A stretch of DNA of 64,000 bases from an uncultured Gemmatimonadales bacterium (GCA_963705985.1 CAVPLK010000006.1:347067-411066), one strand, 5' to 3'; shown: positions 16,902 through 52,726, counted from the first letter of the stretch. Translations and numbers: made by a program. Notes: generated from the sequence alone by a model not told the origin.

Positions 16902-17747
16902 TTACGACACGGTGAATGTGGTGGTCATCCCGTGGAGCACATGCGACTTGCCGTCTGTCGCGTCACGGACAAAGCAGATGAGGCCGTAGCGTCCCGGCGC
17001 GAAGGTCATGGAGAAATTCTGGGCCTGGCCCGGCCTCAGGTCGGTGAGCCCGCCGGAGGTCATCCCCGGGGGCGGACCCTGGTAGCCTCCCTCCACCCAG
17101 TCGATCCACGGTTGCATCGTCTCCCCTGGCGCGAGCGGAACGATGGCGATCTCATGCGGCTGGTCGGCGTTGTTGGTCACCGCGAACGCATGCGTTCCCG
17201 CTGTCGGTGCCGTCGACAGTGAAAATCCGTAGTTGAAGAGCCCGATCTGAATGTCACCCGCGGGCATGGCGGCGACCGCCCCCGTCGCCGGCTCGACCCA
17301 CATCCCCAGGATCATCCCTTTGGTCAGGTGGGCCGCGCCATCGGGGGCGGGGATGCGACAGTACATCGCGTATTGCCCCGGCTCGAGCACGAGGGTGGCG
17401 TTCACGGAGCTTCCGGGCTGCGCGCCGTTGGGGCCGCCTTCCAGAACCACCCACGCTGGGAGCGCAGCGTGGGCTCCCAGCGCCTCGGCGAGATCGGCCA
17501 CGGTCTTGCCGTCGGTCAGCCGCACGAGCTGCATGTGGTGCAGCTCCTGGCCGTCGTTCACGAGTGTGATGGTCGTGAGTCCTGCGTGGACCGGTGCGGT
17601 CGGCAACTGATAGCCGTACTCCGTGGCAATGATCGCGACTTCCTGCGGAGCGGCAGTGGCAGCTACGTCACTGTCCGGGGCAGGTTCCCTGGCGCAGGCG
17701 AGCGCGAGCACGGCCGCCGGGAGCATGGCGCAGGTTCGAATGGACAA
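16902..17747 (-). CDS. two-domain cupredoxin-like lipoprotein, paralog 1
   Basis: Lipobox LALAC. Each half carries His ... C-x9-H-x4-M (YCRIPAPDGAAHLTKGM and ICFVRDATDGKSHVLHGM). Start assigned to a TTG with GGAG 7 nt upstream; an ATG at 17726 is the alternative. Confidence 0.6.
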   Translation of the reverse strand: MSIRTCAMLPAAVLALACAREPAPDSDVAATAAPQEVAIIATEYGYQLPTAPVHAGLTTITLVNDGQELHHMQLVRLTDGKTVADLAEALGAHAALPAWVVLEGGPNGAQPGSSVNATLVLEPGQYAMYCRIPAPDGAAHLTKGMILGMWVEPATGAVAAMPAGDIQIGLFNYGFSLSTAPTAGTHAFAVTNNADQPHEIAIVPLAPGETMQPWIDWVEGGYQGPPPGMTSGGLTDLRPGQAQNFSMTFAPGRYGLICFVRDATDGKSHVLHGMTTTFTVS

Positions 17748-17757
17748 TGGGGCTCCG

Positions 17758-18582
17758 CTATGAGACGGTGAAGGTGGCGACCATCCCGTGGACGAAGTGC
17801 GGCGCGCCGTCCGGGGCGGGGATGAAACAGAGCAGCCCGTAGGTGCCCGGGGAAAAATTGGCGGTGAAGTTTTGTGTCTGCCCCGGGGCAAAGCCCGACA
17901 GGCCTCCGACCGCCTCCGCTGGGGGCGGCCCCTGCTCGCCGCCCGCCATCCAGCCGACGAACTGTTCGATCGTCGTGCCGGGTGCGAGGCGCACGAGGAC
18001 AACCTCATGGGCCTCGGCGCCCCGATTGACGACCCGCACCGTCTGCGTGCCGGCCGCCGGGGTCTGGGAGAGGGCAATGCTATACTCCGCCAGGATCATC
18101 TCGATATCGCCCGGGGGAAGGGCAGCGACTGCCCCCGTGGCGGGTTGCACTTCGAGCCCGAGGATCATCCCCTTGGCCATGTGCGGCACACCATCGGGCG
18201 ACGGAATGAAACAGACAAGCGCATACGTCCCCGGATCGAGGACGAGGGTCGCGTTGGCTTCGCCGCCGGGTGCCGCTCCGTTGGGCCCACCCATGGCGAT
18301 CGCCCACGCCGGCGGCGGGCCATCGGACTGCACCGCGGTCATGAGGTCGTCCACCGTCTTCCCCTCGGTCAGCCGCACGAGGGTGACGTGGTGGATCTCA
18401 GCGCCCTGGTTGACGAGGGTGACGGTCGTCAGCCCGGCGTGAACTGTCGTCGGTGGCAGGCTGTAGGCGAAGTCCGTCGCCGTGATGGTCACCTGCTGCG
18501 GTGCGGCCGAGGTGTCGACCGGTGGAGCATCCTTGGCGCAGGCGGCGAGCAGGCCGAGCAGCAGAAGGGGGGCAAGGCGCAT
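17758..18582 (-). CDS. two-domain cupredoxin-like lipoprotein, paralog 2
   Basis: MRLAPLLLLGLLAAC lipobox with AAGGAG upstream. Same architecture and motifs as paralog 1 (VCFIPSPDGVPHMAKGM and LCFIPAPDGAPHFVHGM). Confidence 0.65.
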   Translation of the reverse strand: MRLAPLLLLGLLAACAKDAPPVDTSAAPQQVTITATDFAYSLPPTTVHAGLTTVTLVNQGAEIHHVTLVRLTEGKTVDDLMTAVQSDGPPPAWAIAMGGPNGAAPGGEANATLVLDPGTYALVCFIPSPDGVPHMAKGMILGLEVQPATGAVAALPPGDIEMILAEYSIALSQTPAAGTQTVRVVNRGAEAHEVVLVRLAPGTTIEQFVGWMAGGEQGPPPAEAVGGLSGFAPGQTQNFTANFSPGTYGLLCFIPAPDGAPHFVHGMVATFTVS

Positions 18583-18690: not shown

Positions 18691-20588
18691 GTGACGCGCC
18701 ATCTCGCCAGAGCCGTGCTGCTTTCCCTCGTGAGCGCCTCCGGCCTCGCCGCCCAGGGGTGGCAGCTCTCCCCCTTCCGTCCCCTCGACTTGCCGGGTCC
18801 CAACGAATACCGGGCCGCAAGCGGTCGGCCGGGGCATGCCTACTGGCAGCAGGGCGTGGACTACCGGATCGACGCCACGCTCGATCCGGTGGCCAACGAA
18901 CTCCGCGGCCGGGAGGTGATCAGCTACCACAATCGATCGCCCGACGAGCTCCCCTACCTCTGGATGCACCTGGAGCAGAACATGTGCGCCGCGGGGAGCG
19001 TCACCTCCCAGCTCGACCAGCCGCCGCTCGTGTTCCTCGGTTCCTCATTCGACTTCTCGTGCCAGGGGTTCGCCGGCGGATTCATCCTCGATACGGTGCT
19101 GGTGGGCGGCCGGCCGGTCACCCCGGCGGTGTACGGCACCACGATGCGGCTCGACCTGGCCACGCCGCTGGCGGCCGGAGCGAGCCTCGAGATCGTGATC
19201 CGCTGGCGTTTCAAGGTGCCCGCCTTCGGCGGCGGCCGGATGGGGCACGACGGCACCCTCTACGAGGTGGCCCAGTGGTATCCCCGGCTGGCGGTGTACG
19301 ACGACCTCCGGGGCTGGAACCACGACCCCTACATCGGCGCGGGGGAGTTCTACCTGGAGTACGGCCGGTTCGACGTGGCGCTCACCGTGCCCGTCGAACT
19401 ACATCGTGGCGGCCACGGGCACGTTGCAGAATCCCGAGCGAGGTGTTGTCGCAGGCGCAGCGGGAGCGATTGAAGCGCGCCGCCGGCTCAACCTCACCCG
19501 TGGCGGTCATCACGCGCGAGGAGGCAATGCATCCGCCGCGGCTCGAGGCCTCGCGCGCCGCCACCCTCACCTGGCGCTTCACCGCCGACAGCGTGCGCGA
19601 TTTCGCCTTCGCGGCCAGCCCCGACTTCCAGTGGGACGCGAGCGCGTGGGAGGGCGTGATGATCCACACCCTCTACCGCCCCTCCGCGACCCTCTGGGCC
19701 GAGGCGAACAAGATCACCAACGAGGCGCTGGCGTTCTACAGCCAGCAGTGGCTGCGGTATCCCTATCCGCACTTCACCAGCATCGAGGGCCCGATCGAGG
19801 GGATGGAATACCCGATGATCACCTTCGACCCCACCGGACCGAACCGTGAGGATGTGCACTGGGTGCTGGCGCATGAGCTCGGTCACCAGTGGGTGCCGAT
19901 GGTCGTCGGCTCCAACGAGCGGCTCTATCCCTGGATGGACGAAGGGTTCAACACCTTCATCGACCTCGCCAACGCGGCGCGGTACTTCAAGGGCACCGCC
20001 TACGGCGACTCGATCGAGGTCCACCCGTTGCACCTGTACCCCGATCACGCGGGGCCCGACGAGCAGCCGCTCGGCCTGCGTCCCGTCGAGGTGCACGACC
20101 TCTTCTGGGCGGGGTACCAGAAGCCGGCGCTGATGCTGCAGCTGCTCCGCTACGAGGTGCTGGGGCCGGCGCGGTTCGACGCGGCCTTCCGCCAGTACCT
20201 GGCGGCGTGGGCGTTCCGGCACCCGTCGCCCGCCGACTTCTTCCGCCTGATGCGCGACGCCTCGGGAATGGACCTCGACTGGTTCTGGCGGGAGTGGGTC
20301 CGGACCACGACCCGGCTCGACCAGGCGGTCGAGGGCATCGTGGCCGCGCCCTCCGGCGTCACCGACGTGACGCTCGCGAGCCTCGGCACGATGGTCATGC
20401 CGGCGGAGCTGAAGCTCACCTTTGCCGACGGCTCCACCGAGGTGGTCCGCCTGCCGGTGGAGATGTGGAACCTGGGGCCGACATTCACCTATCGGGTTCG
20501 GGGCAAGCCCGGCGTCAGGAGCGCCGAGCTTGATCCGCGGCAGGCGCTGCCCGATGTCGACCGCGCCAACAACAGGTACCCGCGGTGA
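18691..20588 (+). pseudogene. M1-family metallopeptidase (aminopeptidase N-like) with two frame changes
   Basis: N-terminus in ORF 18691..19473. A short middle piece YIVAATGTLQNPE lies in the frame of ORF 19406. The remainder is in ORF 18597..20588, with HELGHQW and WMDEGF motifs. Apparent extra bases near 19393 and 19439. Confidence 0.75.
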
Positions 20589-41885: not shown

Positions 41886-42479
41886 ATGCGTAAGCTGGCC
41901 TCGGTGTTCGGCGGAACGCTGCTCCTGACCCTGGCCGTGGCGTTGCTCGCCCGAGACGCCGCGGCAACGAGGCAGGCGGCGCCGGCCGTCAACGACTCGC
42001 TCCTCGCCCCGGTCCTGACCGCCGCCGATTCCGCGGCGCTGAAGGGCCCGCGCCAGCCGATTTTCTTCCGCCACGACATTCACGCCGGCCAGTTCAAGAT
42101 CAACTGCCAGTACTGCCACTACTCGGTCTCGGTCTCCTCGGAGCCTGGGATCCCGAGCATGAGCACCTGCATGAACTGCCACCTGGTCATCGGCGGCACC
42201 GACTCGACGGCGCAGCGGGAAATTGCCAAGGTCCGCGAGTCCTACAACACCAGCACGCCGGTCGAGTGGAACCGGGTCTATTTCCTGGCCCGCCACGCGC
42301 ACTTCCCCCATATGCGGCACATCAACGCGATGGGACCGAACGCCTGCGCCACCTGCCACGGCGACGTGACGCGGGCGCCCCAGGTGTTCAAGGTGAACAA
42401 CGTGAACAACATGGGCTTCTGCATCAATTGCCACCTGGAGCGGAACGTGTCGCGCGACTGTTCCGTCTGCCACTACTAG
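41886..42479 (+). CDS. actA: Alternative Complex III subunit ActA, pentaheme cytochrome c
   Basis: Five CxxCH motifs (CQYCH, CMNCH, CATCH, CINCH, CSVCH) and an N-terminal membrane anchor. Confidence 0.9.
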   Translation: MRKLASVFGGTLLLTLAVALLARDAAATRQAAPAVNDSLLAPVLTAADSAALKGPRQPIFFRHDIHAGQFKINCQYCHYSVSVSSEPGIPSMSTCMNCHLVIGGTDSTAQREIAKVRESYNTSTPVEWNRVYFLARHAHFPHMRHINAMGPNACATCHGDVTRAPQVFKVNNVNNMGFCINCHLERNVSRDCSVCHY

Positions 42480-42505
42480 CGACTGCCAGCCCTCGAGGCG
42501 CAGCA

Positions 42506-45500
42506 ATGGACGAGACGCAAGACACCGGGATGGACCGACGGCGATTCCTGACCGTGCTCGGCGTGACCGGGGCCGGCACGGCGGCGCTGACCGGCTGCTC
42601 CACGGACCGGGTCCAGAAACTGATTCCGTACCTGGTGCAGTCCGAGGACCAGGTGCCCGGCATCCCCACCTTCTATTCCAGCACCTGCACCGAATGCGCC
42701 GCGGGGTGCGGCCTGCACGTGAAGACGCGTGAGGCGCGCGCCATCAAGCTCGAGGGCAATCCTGCGCACCCGGTCAACGCCGGGAAGCTTTGCGCGCGGG
42801 GTCAGGCAGGGCTCCAATCACTCTACAATCCGAACCGGGTACGCGGGCCGAAGAAGCGCCTGGCCGACGGCGGCATGGCGGATATCCCCTGGGCCGACGC
42901 CGTCGCCGAGCTCGCCGCCAAGGCGGCCGCCGCCGGCGGGAAGGTGGCCGTCATTTCGGGGGCCGGTCGCGGCACCTTCTCCGACCTGCTCGCGGCGTGG
43001 ACCGCGGCGCTGGGCGGCAAGGTGGTCCGGTACCAGCCGTTCGATCACGAGCCGATGCGGGCCGCCAATCGCCAGGTGTTCGGGGTGGACGGCATCCCGG
43101 CGCACGACTTCGCCTCCGCCAAGTTCGTGCTCTCCTTCGGCGCCGACTTCCTCGAGACCTGGCTCGCCCCGGTCGAGAACCAGCGCGGCTTCGCCGCGTC
43201 GCACGGCTATCACGACGGCGCGATGTCCCGCCACGTGGCGCTCGCGCCGCGCATGTCGCTGACCGGGATGAACGCCGATGAGTGGTTTGCCATCGTGCCC
43301 GGCGCCGAGGCGACGATTGCCCTCGCCATGGCGCAGGTGATCCTGGCGGAGCGGAGCAGCGCGCCGTCGGACGCCGTGGCGCTCCGCGGGATGCTCGCGG
43401 CCTACGCCCCCGGGCAGGTGGCGCAGCAGACCGGCCTCACGGCGGAGCAGATCACGCTGCTGGCCCGCGAGTTCGTGTCGGCCGAGCCGAGCCTGGCGGT
43501 GGCCGGCGGCATCGGCAGCCAGCACGCCGGCGCCGCCCAGGTCTGCGCCGCGGTCAACATCCTGAACTATGTGGCCGGCAACGTCGGCCAGACGGTCCGC
43601 TTCGGCGCCGATCTCGAGTCGAGCGACGGGTACGCCGCACTCGCCGCGCTCCAGAAGGACATGGAGGCCGGCCGGATCGCGGTGCTGCTGGTGCACGACG
43701 CCAACCCCGCCTACGCCCTGCCGAAGAGCTCCGGTTTCGCGGCGGCGATGGCCAAGGTGCCGTACAAGGTGTCCACCGCCCTGGTATTCGACGAGACCGC
43801 CGCGCTCTGCGATCTCCTCCTGCCGCAGTCACATGGCCTCGAGCGCTGGGACGACTTGCGCCCCCGTGCCGGCATCCAGTCGCTGATGCAGCCGGTCATG
43901 GAACCGGTGTTCGACACGCTGCCGACGGGTGACGTGCTCCTGCGGGTGGCCAAGGCGGCGGGTGGTCCGCTCGCCGGGCTCCAGGCGGCATCGTGGGAGG
44001 CGTACCTGAAGGCGGAATGGCAGGGCGTGGCCCGTGGCCGCGGGGTGCTCGACTTCCCCTCCTGGTGGGTCAACACGCTGGCCCAGGGCGGCCTCTACGA
44101 CGCGGCGCCGGTACCGACTGCGGTGCGTCTGGCCGCCGGCGCCCAGCAGGTGGTCGGCGCCTCCCCCGCCTTTGCTGGTGAGGGGGACTTCCTCTTTGCG
44201 CCGTCCGCCTCACCGATGCTCTACGACGGGCGCGGCGCCGACAAGCCGTGGCTGCTCGAGAATCCGGACCCCGTCACCAAGATCACCTGGCAGTCGTGGA
44301 TCGAGATCCATCCCGAGACGGCGGCGGAACTCGACATCCGGGAGGGGGAGATCCTCCGGCTGGTGTCCGCCTCGGGCAGCATCGAGGCGCCGGCCTACCT
44401 CTATCCGGGTGTTCGTCGCGACGTGGTCTCGGCGCCGCTCGGGTACGGGCACACCAGCTTCGGGGACTATGCCACCGGCCGCGGCGTCAACGCGCTCGAT
44501 CTGCTGGCCGCCCCGGGCGACGCCCCCTTCGTGTCGTACCTCTCCACCCGGGTCTCGGTGGAAAAGACCCGTCGCTACCAGAAGGTGGCCAAGACAGAAG
44601 GCAACAACCGGCAGCTCGGGCGTGGGATTGCCGAGGCGATGCCGCTCGCGGCCGCGCGGAAGGGGATGACGCCGGAAGAGGCGCACCACGAGGAGGCGGG
44701 CGGCGGGGCGCACGAGATCAACACGCCGCGCGAACTGGAGGCGATCGCCGGATTCGCGGCGGCGCAGAAGGCGGCCACGCTCAAGGGCAACTATGTCGGC
44801 GACCATCCGCAGTGGGGGATGACCATCGACCTGGCCAAGTGCACCGGCTGTTCGGCGTGCGTCACGGCCTGCTACGCCGAGAACAACATCCCGACCGTGG
44901 GCGAGTCGGAGGTGCTGCGCGGCCGGGAAATGAGCTGGATGCGCATCGAGCGGTACTACGAGGGTGGGGAGGAGGGGGCGCCGCTGGAGACGCGCTTCGT
45001 GCCGATGCTCTGCCAGCACTGCGCCAACGCGCCCTGCGAGCCGGTCTGCCCGGTGTACGCCGCCTACCACACGCCGGACGGCCTCAACGGCCAGGTGTAC
45101 AACCGGTGCGTCGGCACCCGGTACTGCAGCAACAACTGCCCCTTCAAGGTGCGGTACTTCAACTGGTTCGCCTACAACAAGAAGGCGTTTCCGGAGCCGC
45201 TCCACCTGCAGCTCAACCCCGACGTGACGGTGCGGGCCCGCGGCGTGATGGAAAAGTGCACCTTCTGCGTGCAGCGGATCCGCGGCGCGCAGAACGAGGC
45301 GGCGCTGGAACACCGCGGGCTCCGCGACGGTGACGTCACCAGCGCCTGCGCCCAGGCCTGCCCCTCGGACGCCATCATTTTCGGCGACCGGATGGACCCG
45401 AACAGCCGGGTGGCGCTGAGCGCCGCGGACCCGCGCGGGTACCACGTCTTTGAGGAGACCAACGTGCGGCCGTCCGTCACCTATCTGGCCAAGGTCCTCA

Positions 45501-45517
45501 ACGGGGTGGAGGCGTAG
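42506..45517 (+). CDS. actB: ACIII subunit ActB (fused molybdopterin-oxidoreductase-like B1 and 4Fe-4S B2 domains)
   Basis: Tat signal DRRRFLTVLGVTGAG. Molybdopterin-family N-terminal part. Ferredoxin clusters CTGCSACVTAC, CQHCANAPCEPVCP, CVGTRYCSNNCP. Confidence 0.9.
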   Translation: MDETQDTGMDRRRFLTVLGVTGAGTAALTGCSTDRVQKLIPYLVQSEDQVPGIPTFYSSTCTECAAGCGLHVKTREARAIKLEGNPAHPVNAGKLCARGQAGLQSLYNPNRVRGPKKRLADGGMADIPWADAVAELAAKAAAAGGKVAVISGAGRGTFSDLLAAWTAALGGKVVRYQPFDHEPMRAANRQVFGVDGIPAHDFASAKFVLSFGADFLETWLAPVENQRGFAASHGYHDGAMSRHVALAPRMSLTGMNADEWFAIVPGAEATIALAMAQVILAERSSAPSDAVALRGMLAAYAPGQVAQQTGLTAEQITLLAREFVSAEPSLAVAGGIGSQHAGAAQVCAAVNILNYVAGNVGQTVRFGADLESSDGYAALAALQKDMEAGRIAVLLVHDANPAYALPKSSGFAAAMAKVPYKVSTALVFDETAALCDLLLPQSHGLERWDDLRPRAGIQSLMQPVMEPVFDTLPTGDVLLRVAKAAGGPLAGLQAASWEAYLKAEWQGVARGRGVLDFPSWWVNTLAQGGLYDAAPVPTAVRLAAGAQQVVGASPAFAGEGDFLFAPSASPMLYDGRGADKPWLLENPDPVTKITWQSWIEIHPETAAELDIREGEILRLVSASGSIEAPAYLYPGVRRDVVSAPLGYGHTSFGDYATGRGVNALDLLAAPGDAPFVSYLSTRVSVEKTRRYQKVAKTEGNNRQLGRGIAEAMPLAAARKGMTPEEAHHEEAGGGAHEINTPRELEAIAGFAAAQKAATLKGNYVGDHPQWGMTIDLAKCTGCSACVTACYAENNIPTVGESEVLRGREMSWMRIERYYEGGEEGAPLETRFVPMLCQHCANAPCEPVCPVYAAYHTPDGLNGQVYNRCVGTRYCSNNCPFKVRYFNWFAYNKKAFPEPLHLQLNPDVTVRARGVMEKCTFCVQRIRGAQNEAALEHRGLRDGDVTSACAQACPSDAIIFGDRMDPNSRVALSAADPRGYHVFEETNVRPSVTYLAKVLNGVEA

Positions 45518-46853
<1,336 letters not shown>

Positions 46854-46854
<1 letters not shown>

Positions 46855-47363
46855 TGGCGACCATGACGCCCGGCGTCCTCGCCAGCTTCGTCCACGTCGA
46901 TGCCGCGACGGATGCCATCCGCGCCCTCAAGGCGCAGGGGCACACGGACCTGACCGTCTACACCCCGGCGCCCAACCATGAGATCGAGGAGGCGCTCGAT
47001 CATCCGGTGAGTCCGGTCCGCCTCTTCACCCTGGTCGGCGGGCTGACCGGGTGCGCCGCGGGCTTCGCGATGACCTTCTGGATGTCCAACAACTGGCCGT
47101 TGCTGGTCGGCGGCAAGCCGATCGCCACGGTGCCGCCGTACGTGGTGCTCGGGTTCGAGCTGATGATCCTCCTCGGCGCGCTCAGCACGGTGGCGGGCAT
47201 GATCATCATGTCGGCGGTGAACGCCCGGAAACGGGTCCCCTACAGCGAGAAGTTCTCCGATGACCAGATCGGCGTGTTCGTGCCCTGCCGCGCCGAGCAG
47301 GCCGCCGCGGTCGAGACCCTGCTCAAGCGCGCCGGCTCGGTGGAGGTGACGCATGCGTCGTAG
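46854..47363 (+). CDS. actD: ACIII subunit ActD
   Basis: 169 aa. The ATG overlaps the actC stop. Position and two central hydrophobic helices fit ActD. Confidence 0.75.
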
Positions 47364-47931
47364 CGCGCATCCGGCCTTCGCCCTGGGGCTGCTGCTGGCG
47401 GCCACCACGGGATGCAACACCTGGTACAACGACGTGCCCTCGCCGGACACCCTCGTGGCCCAGGTGCCGTGGTTCGATCACATGATCTCGTCGCAGGCCG
47501 TCTTCCCGTATTCCCGGCTGGGCATTCCGCGGAACACTCCTCCCGGGACCGTCCCGGTCACCGGGGGCGAGGTGGACTGGTCGGCCGAGTGGGCCACCGG
47601 CACCACCACGACGGCCGACAAGCTGGTCAATCCGGTCGCCGGTGTGCCCAGCGCCCGCGGCGACACCCTTTACCACACCTTCTGCGCCGTCTGCCACGGC
47701 GTGGCGGGGGCGGGAGACGGGCCGGTCGGACCGAAGGTCGCGGCTCCTTCCATCCTGACCCCGCGCGCCATCGGCTACTCCGACGGGTACCTCTACAGCA
47801 TCACGCGCTACGGCCGGGGCATCATGGGCAAGTACGGCGACAAGATCACCGACCAGGATGACCGCTGGCAGGTCGTCAACTACGTGCGCCAGCTGCAGTC
47901 GGCGGCGCCCCAGTCGACGGGAGGCCAGTGA
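47353..47931 (+). CDS. actE: ACIII subunit ActE, monoheme cytochrome c lipoprotein
   Basis: Lipobox LAATTGC and a single CAVCH motif. Confidence 0.85.
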   Translation: MRRSAHPAFALGLLLAATTGCNTWYNDVPSPDTLVAQVPWFDHMISSQAVFPYSRLGIPRNTPPGTVPVTGGEVDWSAEWATGTTTTADKLVNPVAGVPSARGDTLYHTFCAVCHGVAGAGDGPVGPKVAAPSILTPRAIGYSDGYLYSITRYGRGIMGKYGDKITDQDDRWQVVNYVRQLQSAAPQSTGGQ

Positions 47932-49274
47932 TGCGCGACGCCAAACTGCAGAGTCGACTCTCCGGCCATGCCCTCGGCGGCCGCTTCCAGCTCTTCGTGC
48001 TCGGCGGCGGCGTCCTGGCGCTCGCCGGGGCCGCCCTCTTCGCGATGTCGCTCTCGGGCGCCGAGGCCGATCGGGCCTGGCAGCTCTTCCACGTCAATTG
48101 GCTCTATTTCACCGGGCTGGCCGGCGGGTCGGTGGCTCTCGCGGCGGTGCACAAGATCGTCAAGGCGAAGTGGTCGGGCGTCGTGCTCCGGTTTGCCGAG
48201 GCGGCGGTGGCCTTCTTCCCGATTTCGCTCCTCGGGCTCGTGCTGATCTTTACCCTTGGATACGACCACATCTACGGGCCGATGCACGAGCAGCTGCACT
48301 CGCTGGCGCACGGCAAGGCGCTCTGGCTCTCGAAGCCGTGGATGTTTGGCCGGCTCTTCGTCGGTCTCTGCGCGCTCTACTACCTCGGGTGGCAATTGAT
48401 CCGGGCCGACCTGCTGCCGGACCTGGCCGACACCCTCGAGCAGGCCGACGGCCCGCGCCGGGCGCGGTACGAGCGGATGCTGGCCGGCTTCGACAACAGC
48501 GCGGAGGGCCGCGCCGCCAACGAGGCGCGCCTGGCCCGCCTCGGCCCGATGTTCGCCGCCACCTACGCGATGGTGTTCACCCTGGTGGCGTTCGACGGCA
48601 TCATGGCGCTGCAGCCGCACTGGTTCTCGAACCTCCTCGGCGGCTTCTACTTCATGGGCTCGTTCCTCGGCGCCCATATGCTCCTGGCGCTGACGGTCAT
48701 GTACGCCGGCAACCAGACCGGCGTCTGGAACCTGATCTCGCCCAAGCAGCGCCACGACCTGGGCAAGCTCTGCTTCGGCTTCACGGTGTTCTGGGCCTAC
48801 CTGATGTTCGCCCAGTTCCTCGTCATCTGGTACGGCAACCTCCCCGAAGAAACCGGGTTCGTCTTCGCCCGGCTCTGGGGCACCTGGCTTCCGATCGGCC
48901 GCGCCGTCTTCCTCGGGATGTTCCTGATCCCCTTCCTCGGCCTCCTCGGCGTCTCGGCGAAGAAATTCCCCGGCACGATGGCGCTCTTCGCCACTGTCTC
49001 GCTCGTGGCGCTCTGGCTGGAGCGGTACCTGCTGGTGATGCCGTCGGTGACCGAACTCGAAGGCCCGAACTTCGGCCTCCCGGAACTCGGCCCGACGCTC
49101 CTGATGGCCGGCCTCTTCTTCCTGGCCTACGGGCTCTTTGCCCGGCGCTTCCCGATGGTCTCGCCGCGCCTCGCCGAGATCACCGTCCTGGCCGAACGCC
49201 ACCACGCGATCGAGGATCATTTCGATCATGATGAGAAGGCGACAGACTTCCTTGCGGAGCCCGAGGCGAGCTGA
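47931..49274 (+). CDS. actF: ACIII membrane subunit ActF (NrfD-like paralog of ActC)
   Basis: Polytopic membrane protein directly after actE. The ATG overlaps the actE stop (TGATG); a GTG at 47928 is the alternative start. Confidence 0.8.
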   Translation: MRDAKLQSRLSGHALGGRFQLFVLGGGVLALAGAALFAMSLSGAEADRAWQLFHVNWLYFTGLAGGSVALAAVHKIVKAKWSGVVLRFAEAAVAFFPISLLGLVLIFTLGYDHIYGPMHEQLHSLAHGKALWLSKPWMFGRLFVGLCALYYLGWQLIRADLLPDLADTLEQADGPRRARYERMLAGFDNSAEGRAANEARLARLGPMFAATYAMVFTLVAFDGIMALQPHWFSNLLGGFYFMGSFLGAHMLLALTVMYAGNQTGVWNLISPKQRHDLGKLCFGFTVFWAYLMFAQFLVIWYGNLPEETGFVFARLWGTWLPIGRAVFLGMFLIPFLGLLGVSAKKFPGTMALFATVSLVALWLERYLLVMPSVTELEGPNFGLPELGPTLLMAGLFFLAYGLFARRFPMVSPRLAEITVLAERHHAIEDHFDHDEKATDFLAEPEAS

Positions 49275-52243: not shown

Positions 52244-52726
52244 TTGGCAGCGATGCAGAAGATCAGCTTGGTGGCAGGTTTGGCCGTCCTGGTGGCGGCG
52301 TGTGGCGGCGAGAACAAGGCTCCGGAGCAGGCTCCGGCGGCGACCCCGGCGGCTGACATGGCTCCGGCAACGGCGCCCGCGGCGACCGGTGCGACGCACG
52401 ACGTCAAGATGGAGTTCGATGGCAAGATCTACCACTTCGTTCCCGCGACGCTGACCATCAAGGCCGGCGATGTCGTGAACTTTCACAACGTCAGCGGCGG
52501 CCCGCACAACGTCGCGTTCTGGGCTGACAGCATCCCGACCGGCGCAGCGGCCGTGCTCGGCGCCAACATGCCCGACCAGCTCCAGCCCCTGTCCGGGACG
52601 ATGTTGGTGGTGCAGGACGCCGTGTACAGCATCTCGTTTGCCGGCGCCCCAGAGGGCGAGTACAAGTACTACTGCCTGCCGCACCTCGCGATGGGTATGC
52701 GCGCCGTCATCACGGTCGACGACTGA
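52244..52726 (+). CDS. blue (type 1) copper protein, plastocyanin/auracyanin-like lipoprotein
   Basis: Lipobox LVAAC, then an Ala/Pro-rich tether, then a cupredoxin domain. Cu ligand pattern GGPHNVAF ... YYCLPHLAMGM (H, C-x2-H-x4-M). Confidence 0.85.
   Translation: MAAMQKISLVAGLAVLVAACGGENKAPEQAPAATPAADMAPATAPAATGATHDVKMEFDGKIYHFVPATLTIKAGDVVNFHNVSGGPHNVAFWADSIPTGAAAVLGANMPDQLQPLSGTMLVVQDAVYSISFAGAPEGEYKYYCLPHLAMGMRAVITVDD

What the first reader, a model, noticed from the sequence alone, without database searches (positions are those of the whole stretch)
16902..18582. Tandem paralogous two-domain lipoproteins with four cupredoxin-like sites that use an unusually long C-x9-H-x4-M loop
Two adjacent minus-strand genes encode clearly homologous lipoproteins of roughly 275-280 aa. 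By eye, well over half the positions are identical. Each protein is an internal duplication. Each half has a conserved upstream His (ELHH/EIHH and QPHE/EAHE) followed by a Cys-x9-His-x4-Met motif (for example LVCFIPSPDGVPHMAKGM). That is the ligand order of a type 1 copper site, but the Cys-His loop is much longer than the 2-4 residues of classical cupredoxins. I do not recognise the family. It could be a novel copper-binding or electron-transfer protein, or a copper chaperone or sequestration protein.
Basis: partly seen in the sequence, partly recalled or inferred. Interest (0 to 1): 0.6.

Follow-up and report, generated by a model that had tools for sequence, protein, structure and literature searches.

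The report
Tandem double blue-copper lipoproteins
Two neighbouring genes of a soil Gemmatimonadales bacterium each encode a membrane-tethered protein made of two auracyanin-like blue-copper domains with an unusually long copper-binding loop; they are most likely periplasmic electron carriers from a large family that nobody has studied experimentally.

Summary
Genes A (17758-18582, minus) and B (16902-17747, minus) are 54% identical lipoproteins. Each is an internal duplication of a cupredoxin domain (hhalign E 3.7e-39).

Evidence for type-1 copper sites:
- Each of the four domains has His...Cys-x9/10-His-x4-Met. Three loops are x9; gene B domain 2 is x10.
- All eight ligand positions are 96-100% conserved in 142 representatives that are at most 50% identical to each other.
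- AlphaFold models are confident (pLDDT 92.5 and 94.8).
- The nearest solved folds for one domain are the auracyanins (TM 0.61-0.66).
- In profile alignments the four residues fall on the copper ligands of auracyanin and of copper nitrite reductase.

The loop is longer than AcoP's "unusual" CX6H and nitrite reductase's CX7H. The sequence has no multicopper-oxidase or nitrite-reductase catalytic His motifs and no EfeO M75 domain.

The top 80 genome hits are all Gemmatimonadota. The family occurs in 103 of 201 sampled genomes and has no conserved redox or copper-resistance neighbour. The window also carries the Alternative Complex III operon.

Best reading: tethered two-site blue-copper electron carriers. 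The redox partner is unknown. I could not measure ligand distances because no model coordinates were available. First readers of this scan noted the same family three times on other DNA.

The parts
17758..18582 (-). Gene A: 274-aa lipoprotein made of two cupredoxin domains (P0001)
   Evidence: ORF and translation. Full-length homologues. AlphaFold2 pLDDT 92.5, pTM 0.86.
18538..18582 (-). Gene A signal peptide ending in lipobox LLAAC (Cys15), followed by a low-confidence tether of about 12 residues
   Evidence: Sequence. pLDDT is 50-60 for residues 1-20. Lipobox-like N-termini occur in about 74% of the family.
18139..18504 (-). Gene A domain 1 (residues 27-148), auracyanin-like cupredoxin; N-terminal His ligand H64 at 18391-18393
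   Evidence: Single-domain model pLDDT 94.8. Foldseek best hits are 1qhq, 6kol and 2aan, TM 0.61-0.66.
18166..18213 (-). Gene A domain 1 ligand loop C124-x9-H134-x4-M139 (CFIPSPDGVPHMAKGM)
   Evidence: Conservation 97-98%. The Cys, His and Met align with those of auracyanin 6kol and of the nitrite reductases.
17761..18117 (-). Gene A domain 2 (residues 156-274), second cupredoxin; His ligand H192 at 18007-18009
   Evidence: hhalign of domain 1 against domain 2, E 3.7e-39. Strand pattern repeats.
17782..17829 (-). Gene A domain 2 ligand loop C252-x9-H262-x4-M267 (CFIPAPDGAPHFVHGM)
16902..17747 (-). Gene B: 281-aa paralogous lipoprotein (P0272); TTG start, lipobox Cys18 at 17694-17696
   Evidence: 54% identical to gene A. 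Orthologue P0048 has the same N-terminus.
17313..17360 (-). Gene B domain 1 ligand loop C-x9-H-x4-M (CRIPAPDGAAHLTKGM)
16926..16976 (-). Gene B domain 2 ligand loop C-x10-H-x4-M (CFVRDATDGKSHVLHGM), the family's usual domain-2 spacing

Best explanation
Each gene encodes a periplasmic protein that is lipid-anchored through an N-terminal Cys and a short flexible tether. The protein consists of two rigidly packed auracyanin/azurin-type cupredoxin domains. Each domain binds one type-1 (blue or green) copper through an upstream His (H64 or H192) and a Cys, His and Met from the loop between the last two strands. That loop is unusually long (Cys-x9/10-His). With two redox-active coppers and no catalytic site, the proteins most likely act as membrane-tethered one-electron carriers of the respiratory chain, taking electrons from a membrane complex and passing them to a terminal oxidase or reductase. 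The genome has Alternative Complex III, and its operon lies in the same window. The two paralogues arose by tandem duplication in an ancestor of this sub-lineage and may differ in redox potential or in partner.

Shown here: fold, domain duplication, ligand conservation, export signal, and absence of catalytic motifs.
Inferred: copper binding, ligand geometry, electron-transfer role, and partners.
For: - Fold: AF2 whole protein pLDDT 92.5, pTM 0.86; single domain pLDDT 94.8. Foldseek with the single domain ranks auracyanin B 1qhq, Roseiflexus auracyanin 6kol and auracyanin A 2aan first (TM 0.61-0.66, 24-27% identity). Next come B. anthracis Cupredoxin_1 4hcf, azurin, AcoP and the EfeO Cup domain.
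- Ligands: the profile-to-PDB alignment puts the family's His, Cys, His and Met on the ligand residues of 6kol (E 0.0025). It puts Cys, His and Met on the type-1 loop of the nitrite reductases 1kbv, 2dv6 and 6the. The window's own canonical plastocyanin-family protein gives the same register.
- Topology: Cys sits at the end of the penultimate strand, His in a short helix, and Met at the start of the last strand.
- Conservation: all eight ligand positions are 96-100% conserved in 142 divergent representatives. The other conserved positions are mainly Gly, Pro and Tyr.
- Export: lipobox or signal peptide throughout the family.
- No catalytic sites in the sequence: there are no HxH pairs and no His next to Cys.
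- Possible partners in the genome: ACIII operon at window 41886-49274, a caa3-type COX2 and NosZ.
- From general knowledge rather than these tools: auracyanins are the tethered acceptors of ACIII in Chloroflexi.
Against: - No model coordinates were available, so the clustering of the four ligands and the Cu-Cu distance were not measured.
- No redox partner gene is linked. Across 80 related loci and 6 further contigs the neighbours are housekeeping or variable genes: M50/CBS protease, M1 peptidase, epimerase-DUF1731, queC, queE, GHL10, Omp85 and HD.
- ACIII is in 190 of 201 sampled genomes but the family is in only 103, so ACIII does not require it.
- A canonical single-domain cupredoxin lipoprotein (52244-52726) lies much closer to the ACIII operon and is the more obvious ACIII partner.
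- PF00127 is just under its cut-off (20.3 against 21.2 bits), and Cupredoxin_1 covers only the N-terminal part.
- There are no experimental data on any member.
Confidence: 0.6

Rival explanations
1. Periplasmic copper-homeostasis protein, in the manner of CopI or a sequestration/chaperone protein. The cupredoxin sites would buffer or hand over copper rather than carry electrons.
For: Cupredoxin folds are used for copper handling (CopC, CopI and CupA are listed in PMC10804444). The family is accessory, with 1-5 copies (103 of 201 genomes). The protein is exported and tethered.
Against: No His/Met-rich tracts are present; the conserved positions are the four ligands per domain plus structural Gly, Pro and Tyr. 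No cop, cus or P-type ATPase genes were seen next to it in any of the contexts examined. A buried His2-Cys-Met set with an axial Met is the electron-transfer signature and does not release metal easily (general knowledge).
Confidence: 0.15
2. Catalytic copper enzyme: a two-domain multicopper oxidase or nitrite-reductase relative that forms its catalytic copper site at an oligomer interface.
For: The whole-protein Foldseek hits are two-domain multicopper oxidases, small laccases and copper nitrite reductases (E about 3e-9). The Cys-His loop resembles the nitrite reductase type-1 loop in length and pattern.
Against: The global superposition is poor (TM 0.26, rmsd about 17 A), so the domain packing differs. 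None of the four HxH motifs is present, and there is no His flanking the Cys; the preceding residue is V, I, L or Y. TIGR02376 does not match these genes at E <= 0.001 in the genome search.
Confidence: 0.06
3. EfeO-like metal (iron) uptake component that uses a cupredoxin domain.
For: There are weak NCBIfam EfeO hits to the N-terminal 60-70 residues (E 6e-8, 32 bits). The EfeO Cup domain 7wgu is among the structural neighbours (TM 0.54).
Against: The score is far below the cut-off (32 against 270 bits). There is no M75 peptidase-like domain. No efeU or efeB neighbour was found.
Confidence: 0.04
4. The two paralogues form a heterocomplex, a four-copper relay, rather than acting as independent carriers.
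For: Tandem pairs recur. They are seen in L003, L009, L010, L011 and L015, and separately in a Longimicrobium-like contig, where the upstream 287-aa gene is also a family member (E 2e-100). The A and B clades are each conserved.
Against: Most genomes carry a single copy, for example L007 and L008. No complex could be modelled with the tools at hand.
Confidence: 0.1

Closest known systems
Auracyanins A/B of Chloroflexus aurantiacus and auracyanin of Roseiflexus castenholzii (PDB 2aan, 1qhq, 6kol)
   Same: Best structural match for a single domain (TM 0.61-0.66, 24-27% identity) and best profile-to-sequence match (6kol, E 0.0025). All four ligand residues are aligned. Both are membrane-tethered periplasmic proteins. 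The organism has Alternative Complex III.
   Different: Auracyanins have one domain and a C-x4-H-x4-M loop. This family has two fused domains, and its Cys-His loop carries a 5-6 residue insertion (x9/x10). The identity is too low for PF00127 to pass its cut-off.
Type-1 copper domain of copper nitrite reductases (AniA 1kbv/5tb7, HdNiR 2dv6, 6the)
   Same: Both have a long ligand loop of similar pattern: CavaPvGmHiAnGM against CfiPsPdGvPHmAkGM. Both are two-cupredoxin-domain polypeptides. AniA is also a lipoprotein (general knowledge).
   Different: The nitrite reductase loop is x7. Nitrite reductase has a type-2 catalytic copper bound by a His next to the Cys and by His residues from a neighbouring subunit, and only one type-1 site per chain. 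Here both domains keep a type-1 set and there are no type-2 ligands. The domain packing also differs (TM 0.26).
AcoP of Acidithiobacillus ferrooxidans (PDB 7z3b/7z3g), green single-domain cupredoxin
   Same: It is a structural neighbour (TM 0.55-0.61). It has a helical, extended Cys-His loop, which its authors describe as of unusual length (CX6H, PMC10804444). Its ligand set is His2-Cys-Met.
   Different: AcoP has a single domain and a shorter loop. It comes from an acidophile, and its gene is linked to cytochrome oxidase genes.
Pfam PF13473 Cupredoxin_1 / B. anthracis uncharacterised cupredoxin (4hcf) and the EfeO Cup domain (7wgu)
   Same: PF13473 is the only Pfam model passing its cut-off (gene A, 33.8 bits, residues 7-78). 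Both structures are structural neighbours, TM 0.5-0.54.
   Different: The Pfam match covers only the N-terminal strands, not the copper loop. Gene B is below the cut-off (24 bits). EfeO adds an M75 domain that is absent here.

Membership tests
Cupredoxin / type-1 blue copper proteins | Greek-key beta-sandwich cupredoxin fold | tested here: met
   AF2 pLDDT 92.5 and 94.8. Foldseek probability 1.00 to auracyanins, azurins, AcoP and plastocyanin, TM up to 0.66.
Cupredoxin / type-1 blue copper proteins | Ligand set His (after strand 4) ... Cys-Xn-His-Xm-Met in the loop between the last two strands, conserved | tested here: met
   96-100% conservation in 142 representatives. Columns align with the ligands of 6kol and of the nitrite reductases. 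Strand positions are as expected.
Cupredoxin / type-1 blue copper proteins | The four ligand side chains converge on one site in 3D | not testable with these tools
   Structure prediction returns no coordinates. Convergence is inferred from homology only.
Cupredoxin / type-1 blue copper proteins | Binds one Cu per domain with a ~600 nm charge-transfer band and narrow EPR hyperfine splitting | not testable with these tools
   Needs recombinant protein.
Pfam PF00127 Copper-bind (plastocyanin/azurin family) | Score at or above the gathering cut-off of 21.2 bits | tested here: not met
   Gene A scores 20.3 bits (residues 231-273). Gene B has no hit.
Pfam PF13473 Cupredoxin_1 | Score at or above the gathering cut-off of 27 bits | tested here: inconclusive
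   Gene A scores 33.8 bits (passes, N-terminal part only). Gene B scores 24 bits (fails).
Auracyanin | Single cupredoxin domain with a C-x4-H-x4-M loop | tested here: not met
   Two domains; loops are x9/x10.
Auracyanin | Membrane tether, and ACIII present in the same organism | tested here: met
   Lipobox. ACIII operon in the window. Whether the proteins actually interact is untested.
Two-domain multicopper oxidase / copper nitrite reductase | Type-2/type-3 copper ligands (HxH motifs; His adjacent to the type-1 Cys) | tested here: not met
   The only His residues conserved in at least 80% of representatives are the four ligands plus H65 (80%). H265 is at 65%. The residue before Cys is hydrophobic.
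Two-domain multicopper oxidase / copper nitrite reductase | Same mutual arrangement of the two domains | tested here: not met
   Whole-chain TM 0.23-0.29, rmsd about 17 A.
EfeO (NF041757) | Cup domain plus M75 domain; score at or above 270 bits | tested here: not met
   32.1 bits, covering residues 12-70 only.
CopI-type copper-resistance cupredoxin | His/Met-rich region and a copper-resistance gene neighbourhood | tested here: not met
   No such tract. No cop or cus neighbours.

The most novel reading that the evidence does not exclude
The family is a 'double auracyanin' specific to Gemmatimonadota. It would be a lipid-tethered protein with two type-1 coppers whose record-length Cys-x9/10-His loops give perturbed (green, T1.5-like) sites of different potential. 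It would then work as a built-in two-step electron relay between a membrane complex (ACIII or a cytochrome b complex) and periplasmic or terminal reductases. Tandem paralogues would extend the relay or tune it to different partners.
Probability: 0.25. Interest if true: 0.55.

Novelty: new variant of a known kind. Interest (0 to 1): 0.42.

Why it matters
Gemmatimonadota are abundant soil bacteria and many reduce N2O, yet their periplasmic electron carriers are essentially uncharacterised. This family is large: 631 representative clusters at E <= 1e-30, and about half of the sampled genomes of the phylum carry it.

It combines two features that are rare among cupredoxins. One is two complete type-1 sites in a single non-enzymatic chain. 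The other is a ligand loop longer than any I could find described; AcoP's CX6H is already called unusual, and nitrite reductase has CX7H. Loop length is a known determinant of type-1 site geometry and potential, so the proteins are natural test cases for that question. They are also candidate missing links in the ACIII-based respiratory chains of this phylum.

This is still a variant of a very well known protein class, not a new principle.

Tried and rejected
- Gene neighbourhood as a guide to function. I clustered all ORFs of 80 related loci and annotated the recurrent ones. I also read 6 further contigs. This gave two synteny types (M50-CBS/M1 peptidase | gene | epimerase-DUF1731, queC, queE; or ArsR-DUF5937, aspartyl protease | gene | GHL10) plus several unrelated ones. 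No redox or copper gene is linked.
- PQQ dehydrogenase lead. An earlier first-reader note mentions a PQQ dehydrogenase next to a family member elsewhere. None of the contexts I annotated showed this.
- Co-occurrence across 201 genomes of the phylum. ACIII is nearly universal (190/201), so it is uninformative. For NosZ the table is 61 with both, 42 with the family only, 20 with NosZ only and 78 with neither. The association is confounded by phylogeny, and 42 genomes have the family without NosZ, so NosZ is not an obligatory partner.
- Fusion partners in longer homologues (DUF1264/beta-propeller, SnoaL, RskA-like) gave no coherent hint and may be gene-call artefacts.
- Sequence search of the PDB with the whole protein found nothing useful. 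Only the domain profiles worked.
- Literature searches on Gemmatimonadetes + cupredoxin, COG4454, Gemmatimonas + blue copper protein, and two-domain cupredoxin found nothing on this family.
- The promoter/terminator scan found nothing.
- Ligand distances could not be measured because no coordinates are returned.

Full report
**The genes.** On the minus strand, gene A runs from 18582 to 17758 (274 aa). Gene B runs from 17747 to 16902 (281 aa). Gene B starts at a TTG 10 nt after gene A's stop, preceded by GGAG. The orthologue P0048 has the same MSIR..C N-terminus. Both proteins begin with a signal peptide that ends in a lipobox Cys (LLAAC and LALAC). The two are 54% identical (E 4e-103). The assembly is known to carry frame errors elsewhere (earlier notes), but both genes are intact and align end to end with homologues.

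**Internal duplication and motifs.** Profiles of residues 27-148 and 156-274 align over 117 columns with probability 99.96 and E 3.7e-39. Each half contains an upstream His (E-x-H-H or Q-x-H-E) and a Cys-Xn-His-x4-Met loop. n is 9 in three of the four domains and 10 in gene B domain 2. In the family as a whole, domain 1 is x9 (218 of 247) and domain 2 is x10 (201 of 247).

**Conservation.** The family is large. A full HMMER scan found 5304 representative clusters at E <= 1e-3 and 631 at E <= 1e-30. Among 142 representatives at most 50% identical to each other, the eight putative ligands are conserved in 137-142 sequences each. 128 of the 142 have both complete sets, and the 14 exceptions are scattered substitutions or truncated sequences. 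The remaining positions conserved at 80% or more are mostly Gly, Pro and Tyr. The exceptions are H65 (80%) and E193 (90%), which follow the first His ligand and occupy the place of the Asn that follows that His in azurin and plastocyanin; the Asn comparison is from general knowledge. There are no HxH pairs and no His next to the Cys, so type-2 and type-3 copper sites are excluded.

**Fold.** AlphaFold2 with a 53-sequence alignment gives pLDDT 92.5 and pTM 0.86. The model has two all-beta domains. Each domain carries one inserted helix and a short helix that begins at the loop His.
- With the whole chain, Foldseek hits two-domain multicopper oxidases and copper nitrite reductases (E about 3e-9, probability 1.0). 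The TM-score is only 0.23-0.29 and the rmsd about 17 A. The domains are therefore cupredoxins, but they are packed differently from those enzymes.
- A model of domain 1 alone (pLDDT 94.8) is closest to auracyanin B (1qhq), Roseiflexus auracyanin (6kol) and auracyanin A (2aan), with TM 0.61-0.66 and 24-27% identity. Next come the B. anthracis Cupredoxin_1 protein, azurins, AcoP and the EfeO Cup domain.

**Ligand equivalence.**
- Domain profiles searched against PDB sequences find 6kol best (E 0.0025-0.0027). The family's His, Cys, His and Met fall on that protein's QQHN, C, H and M. The family has a 5-residue insertion between Cys and His.
- The type-1 loops of the nitrite reductases 1kbv/5tb7, 2dv6 and 6the also align (CavaPvG-mHiAnGM against ClipspdgvpHlakGM). 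This shows that these nitrite reductases have CX7H-x4-M.
- The window's own canonical plastocyanin-family lipoprotein (52244-52726, C-x2-H-x4-M, PF00127 63.7 bits) aligns in the same register.
- The AcoP structure paper calls CX6H 'an unusual length' (PMC10804444). CX9H and CX10H are therefore beyond what I could find described.
- I could not measure ligand distances, because no coordinates are returned. Convergence is inferred from this homology and from the strand positions.

**Database status.**
- Pfam Cupredoxin_1 passes its cut-off only for gene A and only over the N-terminal strands.
- PF00127 is just below its cut-off.
- The NCBIfam EfeO hits are far below cut-off.
- Sources name members 'hypothetical protein', 'plastocyanin' or 'uncharacterized cupredoxin-like copper-binding protein'.
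- Four literature searches found no study of the family.

**Distribution and evolution.** The best 80 of 552 genome hits are all Gemmatimonadota (Gemmatimonadales, Gemmatimonadaceae, Longimicrobiaceae). The window's genome is 93% identical in gene A to a Gemmatimonadales MAG. In an even sample of 201 genomes of the phylum, 103 carry the family:
- own family: 71 of 96;
- sister family: 27 of 38;
- three other families: 0 of 47 in the genomes searched.
Genomes that carry the family show 1-5 matches. A maximum-likelihood tree places the A and B copies in sister clades inside one 12-row clade (support 100/100). The duplication therefore predates this genus. Tandem pairs also occur in L003, L009-L011 and L015. 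A Longimicrobium-like contig has one as well, where the unannotated upstream gene is a family member (E 2e-100).

**Context and partners.** The neighbours are conserved by synteny but are not functionally related. In the window these are an M1 peptidase on one side and epimerase/DUF1731, queC and queE on the other. Other lineages have different neighbours.
- The genome encodes Alternative Complex III. Its operon lies in this window at 41886-49274, 24 kb from gene A.
- It also encodes a caa3-type oxidase subunit II, a cytochrome b, eight cytochrome c matches, NosZ and two multicopper oxidases. No nitrite reductase match reached the TIGR02376 cut-off.
- ACIII is nearly universal in the phylum (190 of 201), so it does not discriminate.
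- NosZ co-occurs only loosely (61, 42, 20 and 78 in the 2x2 table) and the association is confounded by phylogeny.

**Conclusion.** The proteins are lipid-tethered periplasmic di-cupredoxins. Each almost certainly binds two type-1 coppers. The most likely role is electron carriage in the respiratory chain, by analogy with auracyanin, lipid-modified azurin and similar tethered carriers. The partner is unknown. The canonical cupredoxin next to the ACIII operon is at least as good a candidate for the ACIII acceptor. A copper-handling role is less likely but not excluded. A catalytic multicopper-oxidase, nitrite-reductase or EfeO role fails defining tests. The novelty lies in the architecture and the loop, not in the principle.

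Noticed in passing
window 41886-49274 (+): Complete-looking Alternative Complex III operon. ActA is a multihaem cytochrome (41886-42479). ActB is a molybdopterin/4Fe-4S protein (42266-45517). ActC/ActD have NrfD and ActD domains (45450-47363). ActE is a cytochrome c (47353-47931). A 448-aa ORF without a Pfam hit, possibly ActF, follows (47928-49274).
   Followed up: partly
window 52244-52726 (+): Canonical single-domain plastocyanin/azurin-family lipoprotein (PF00127, 63.7 bits; LVAAC lipobox; C-x2-H-x4-M). It lies about 3 kb downstream of the ACIII operon and is a more obvious candidate for the ACIII electron acceptor than the two-domain proteins.
   Followed up: partly
window 18691-20588 (+): The divergent M1 peptidase gene (HELGHQW) is split between two reading frames around 19400-19470. 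The orthologue in L003 is an intact 631-aa gene. This fits the assembly-error pattern already noted for this genome.
   Followed up: partly
L006 5968-6831 and 7001-7867: A Longimicrobium-like contig carries its own tandem pair of the same two-domain cupredoxin. The upstream copy has no precomputed Pfam hit. This suggests recurrent tandem duplication in the family.
   Followed up: partly
proteins P0196, P0184, P0258 (metagenomic homologues): Some longer homologues fuse the di-cupredoxin to SnoaL-like domains or to a DUF1264/beta-propeller region, or repeat it four times with some Cys-less copies. In P0196, domain 1 has lost Cys and Met while domain 2 keeps them.
   Followed up: partly
genome contigs C4:516888-519081: The NosZ gene (690-aa ORF with nos_propeller and a weak cupredoxin match) is preceded by a cytochrome c gene. 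The genome seems to have no match reaching the TIGR02376 cut-off for copper nitrite reductase.
   Followed up: no
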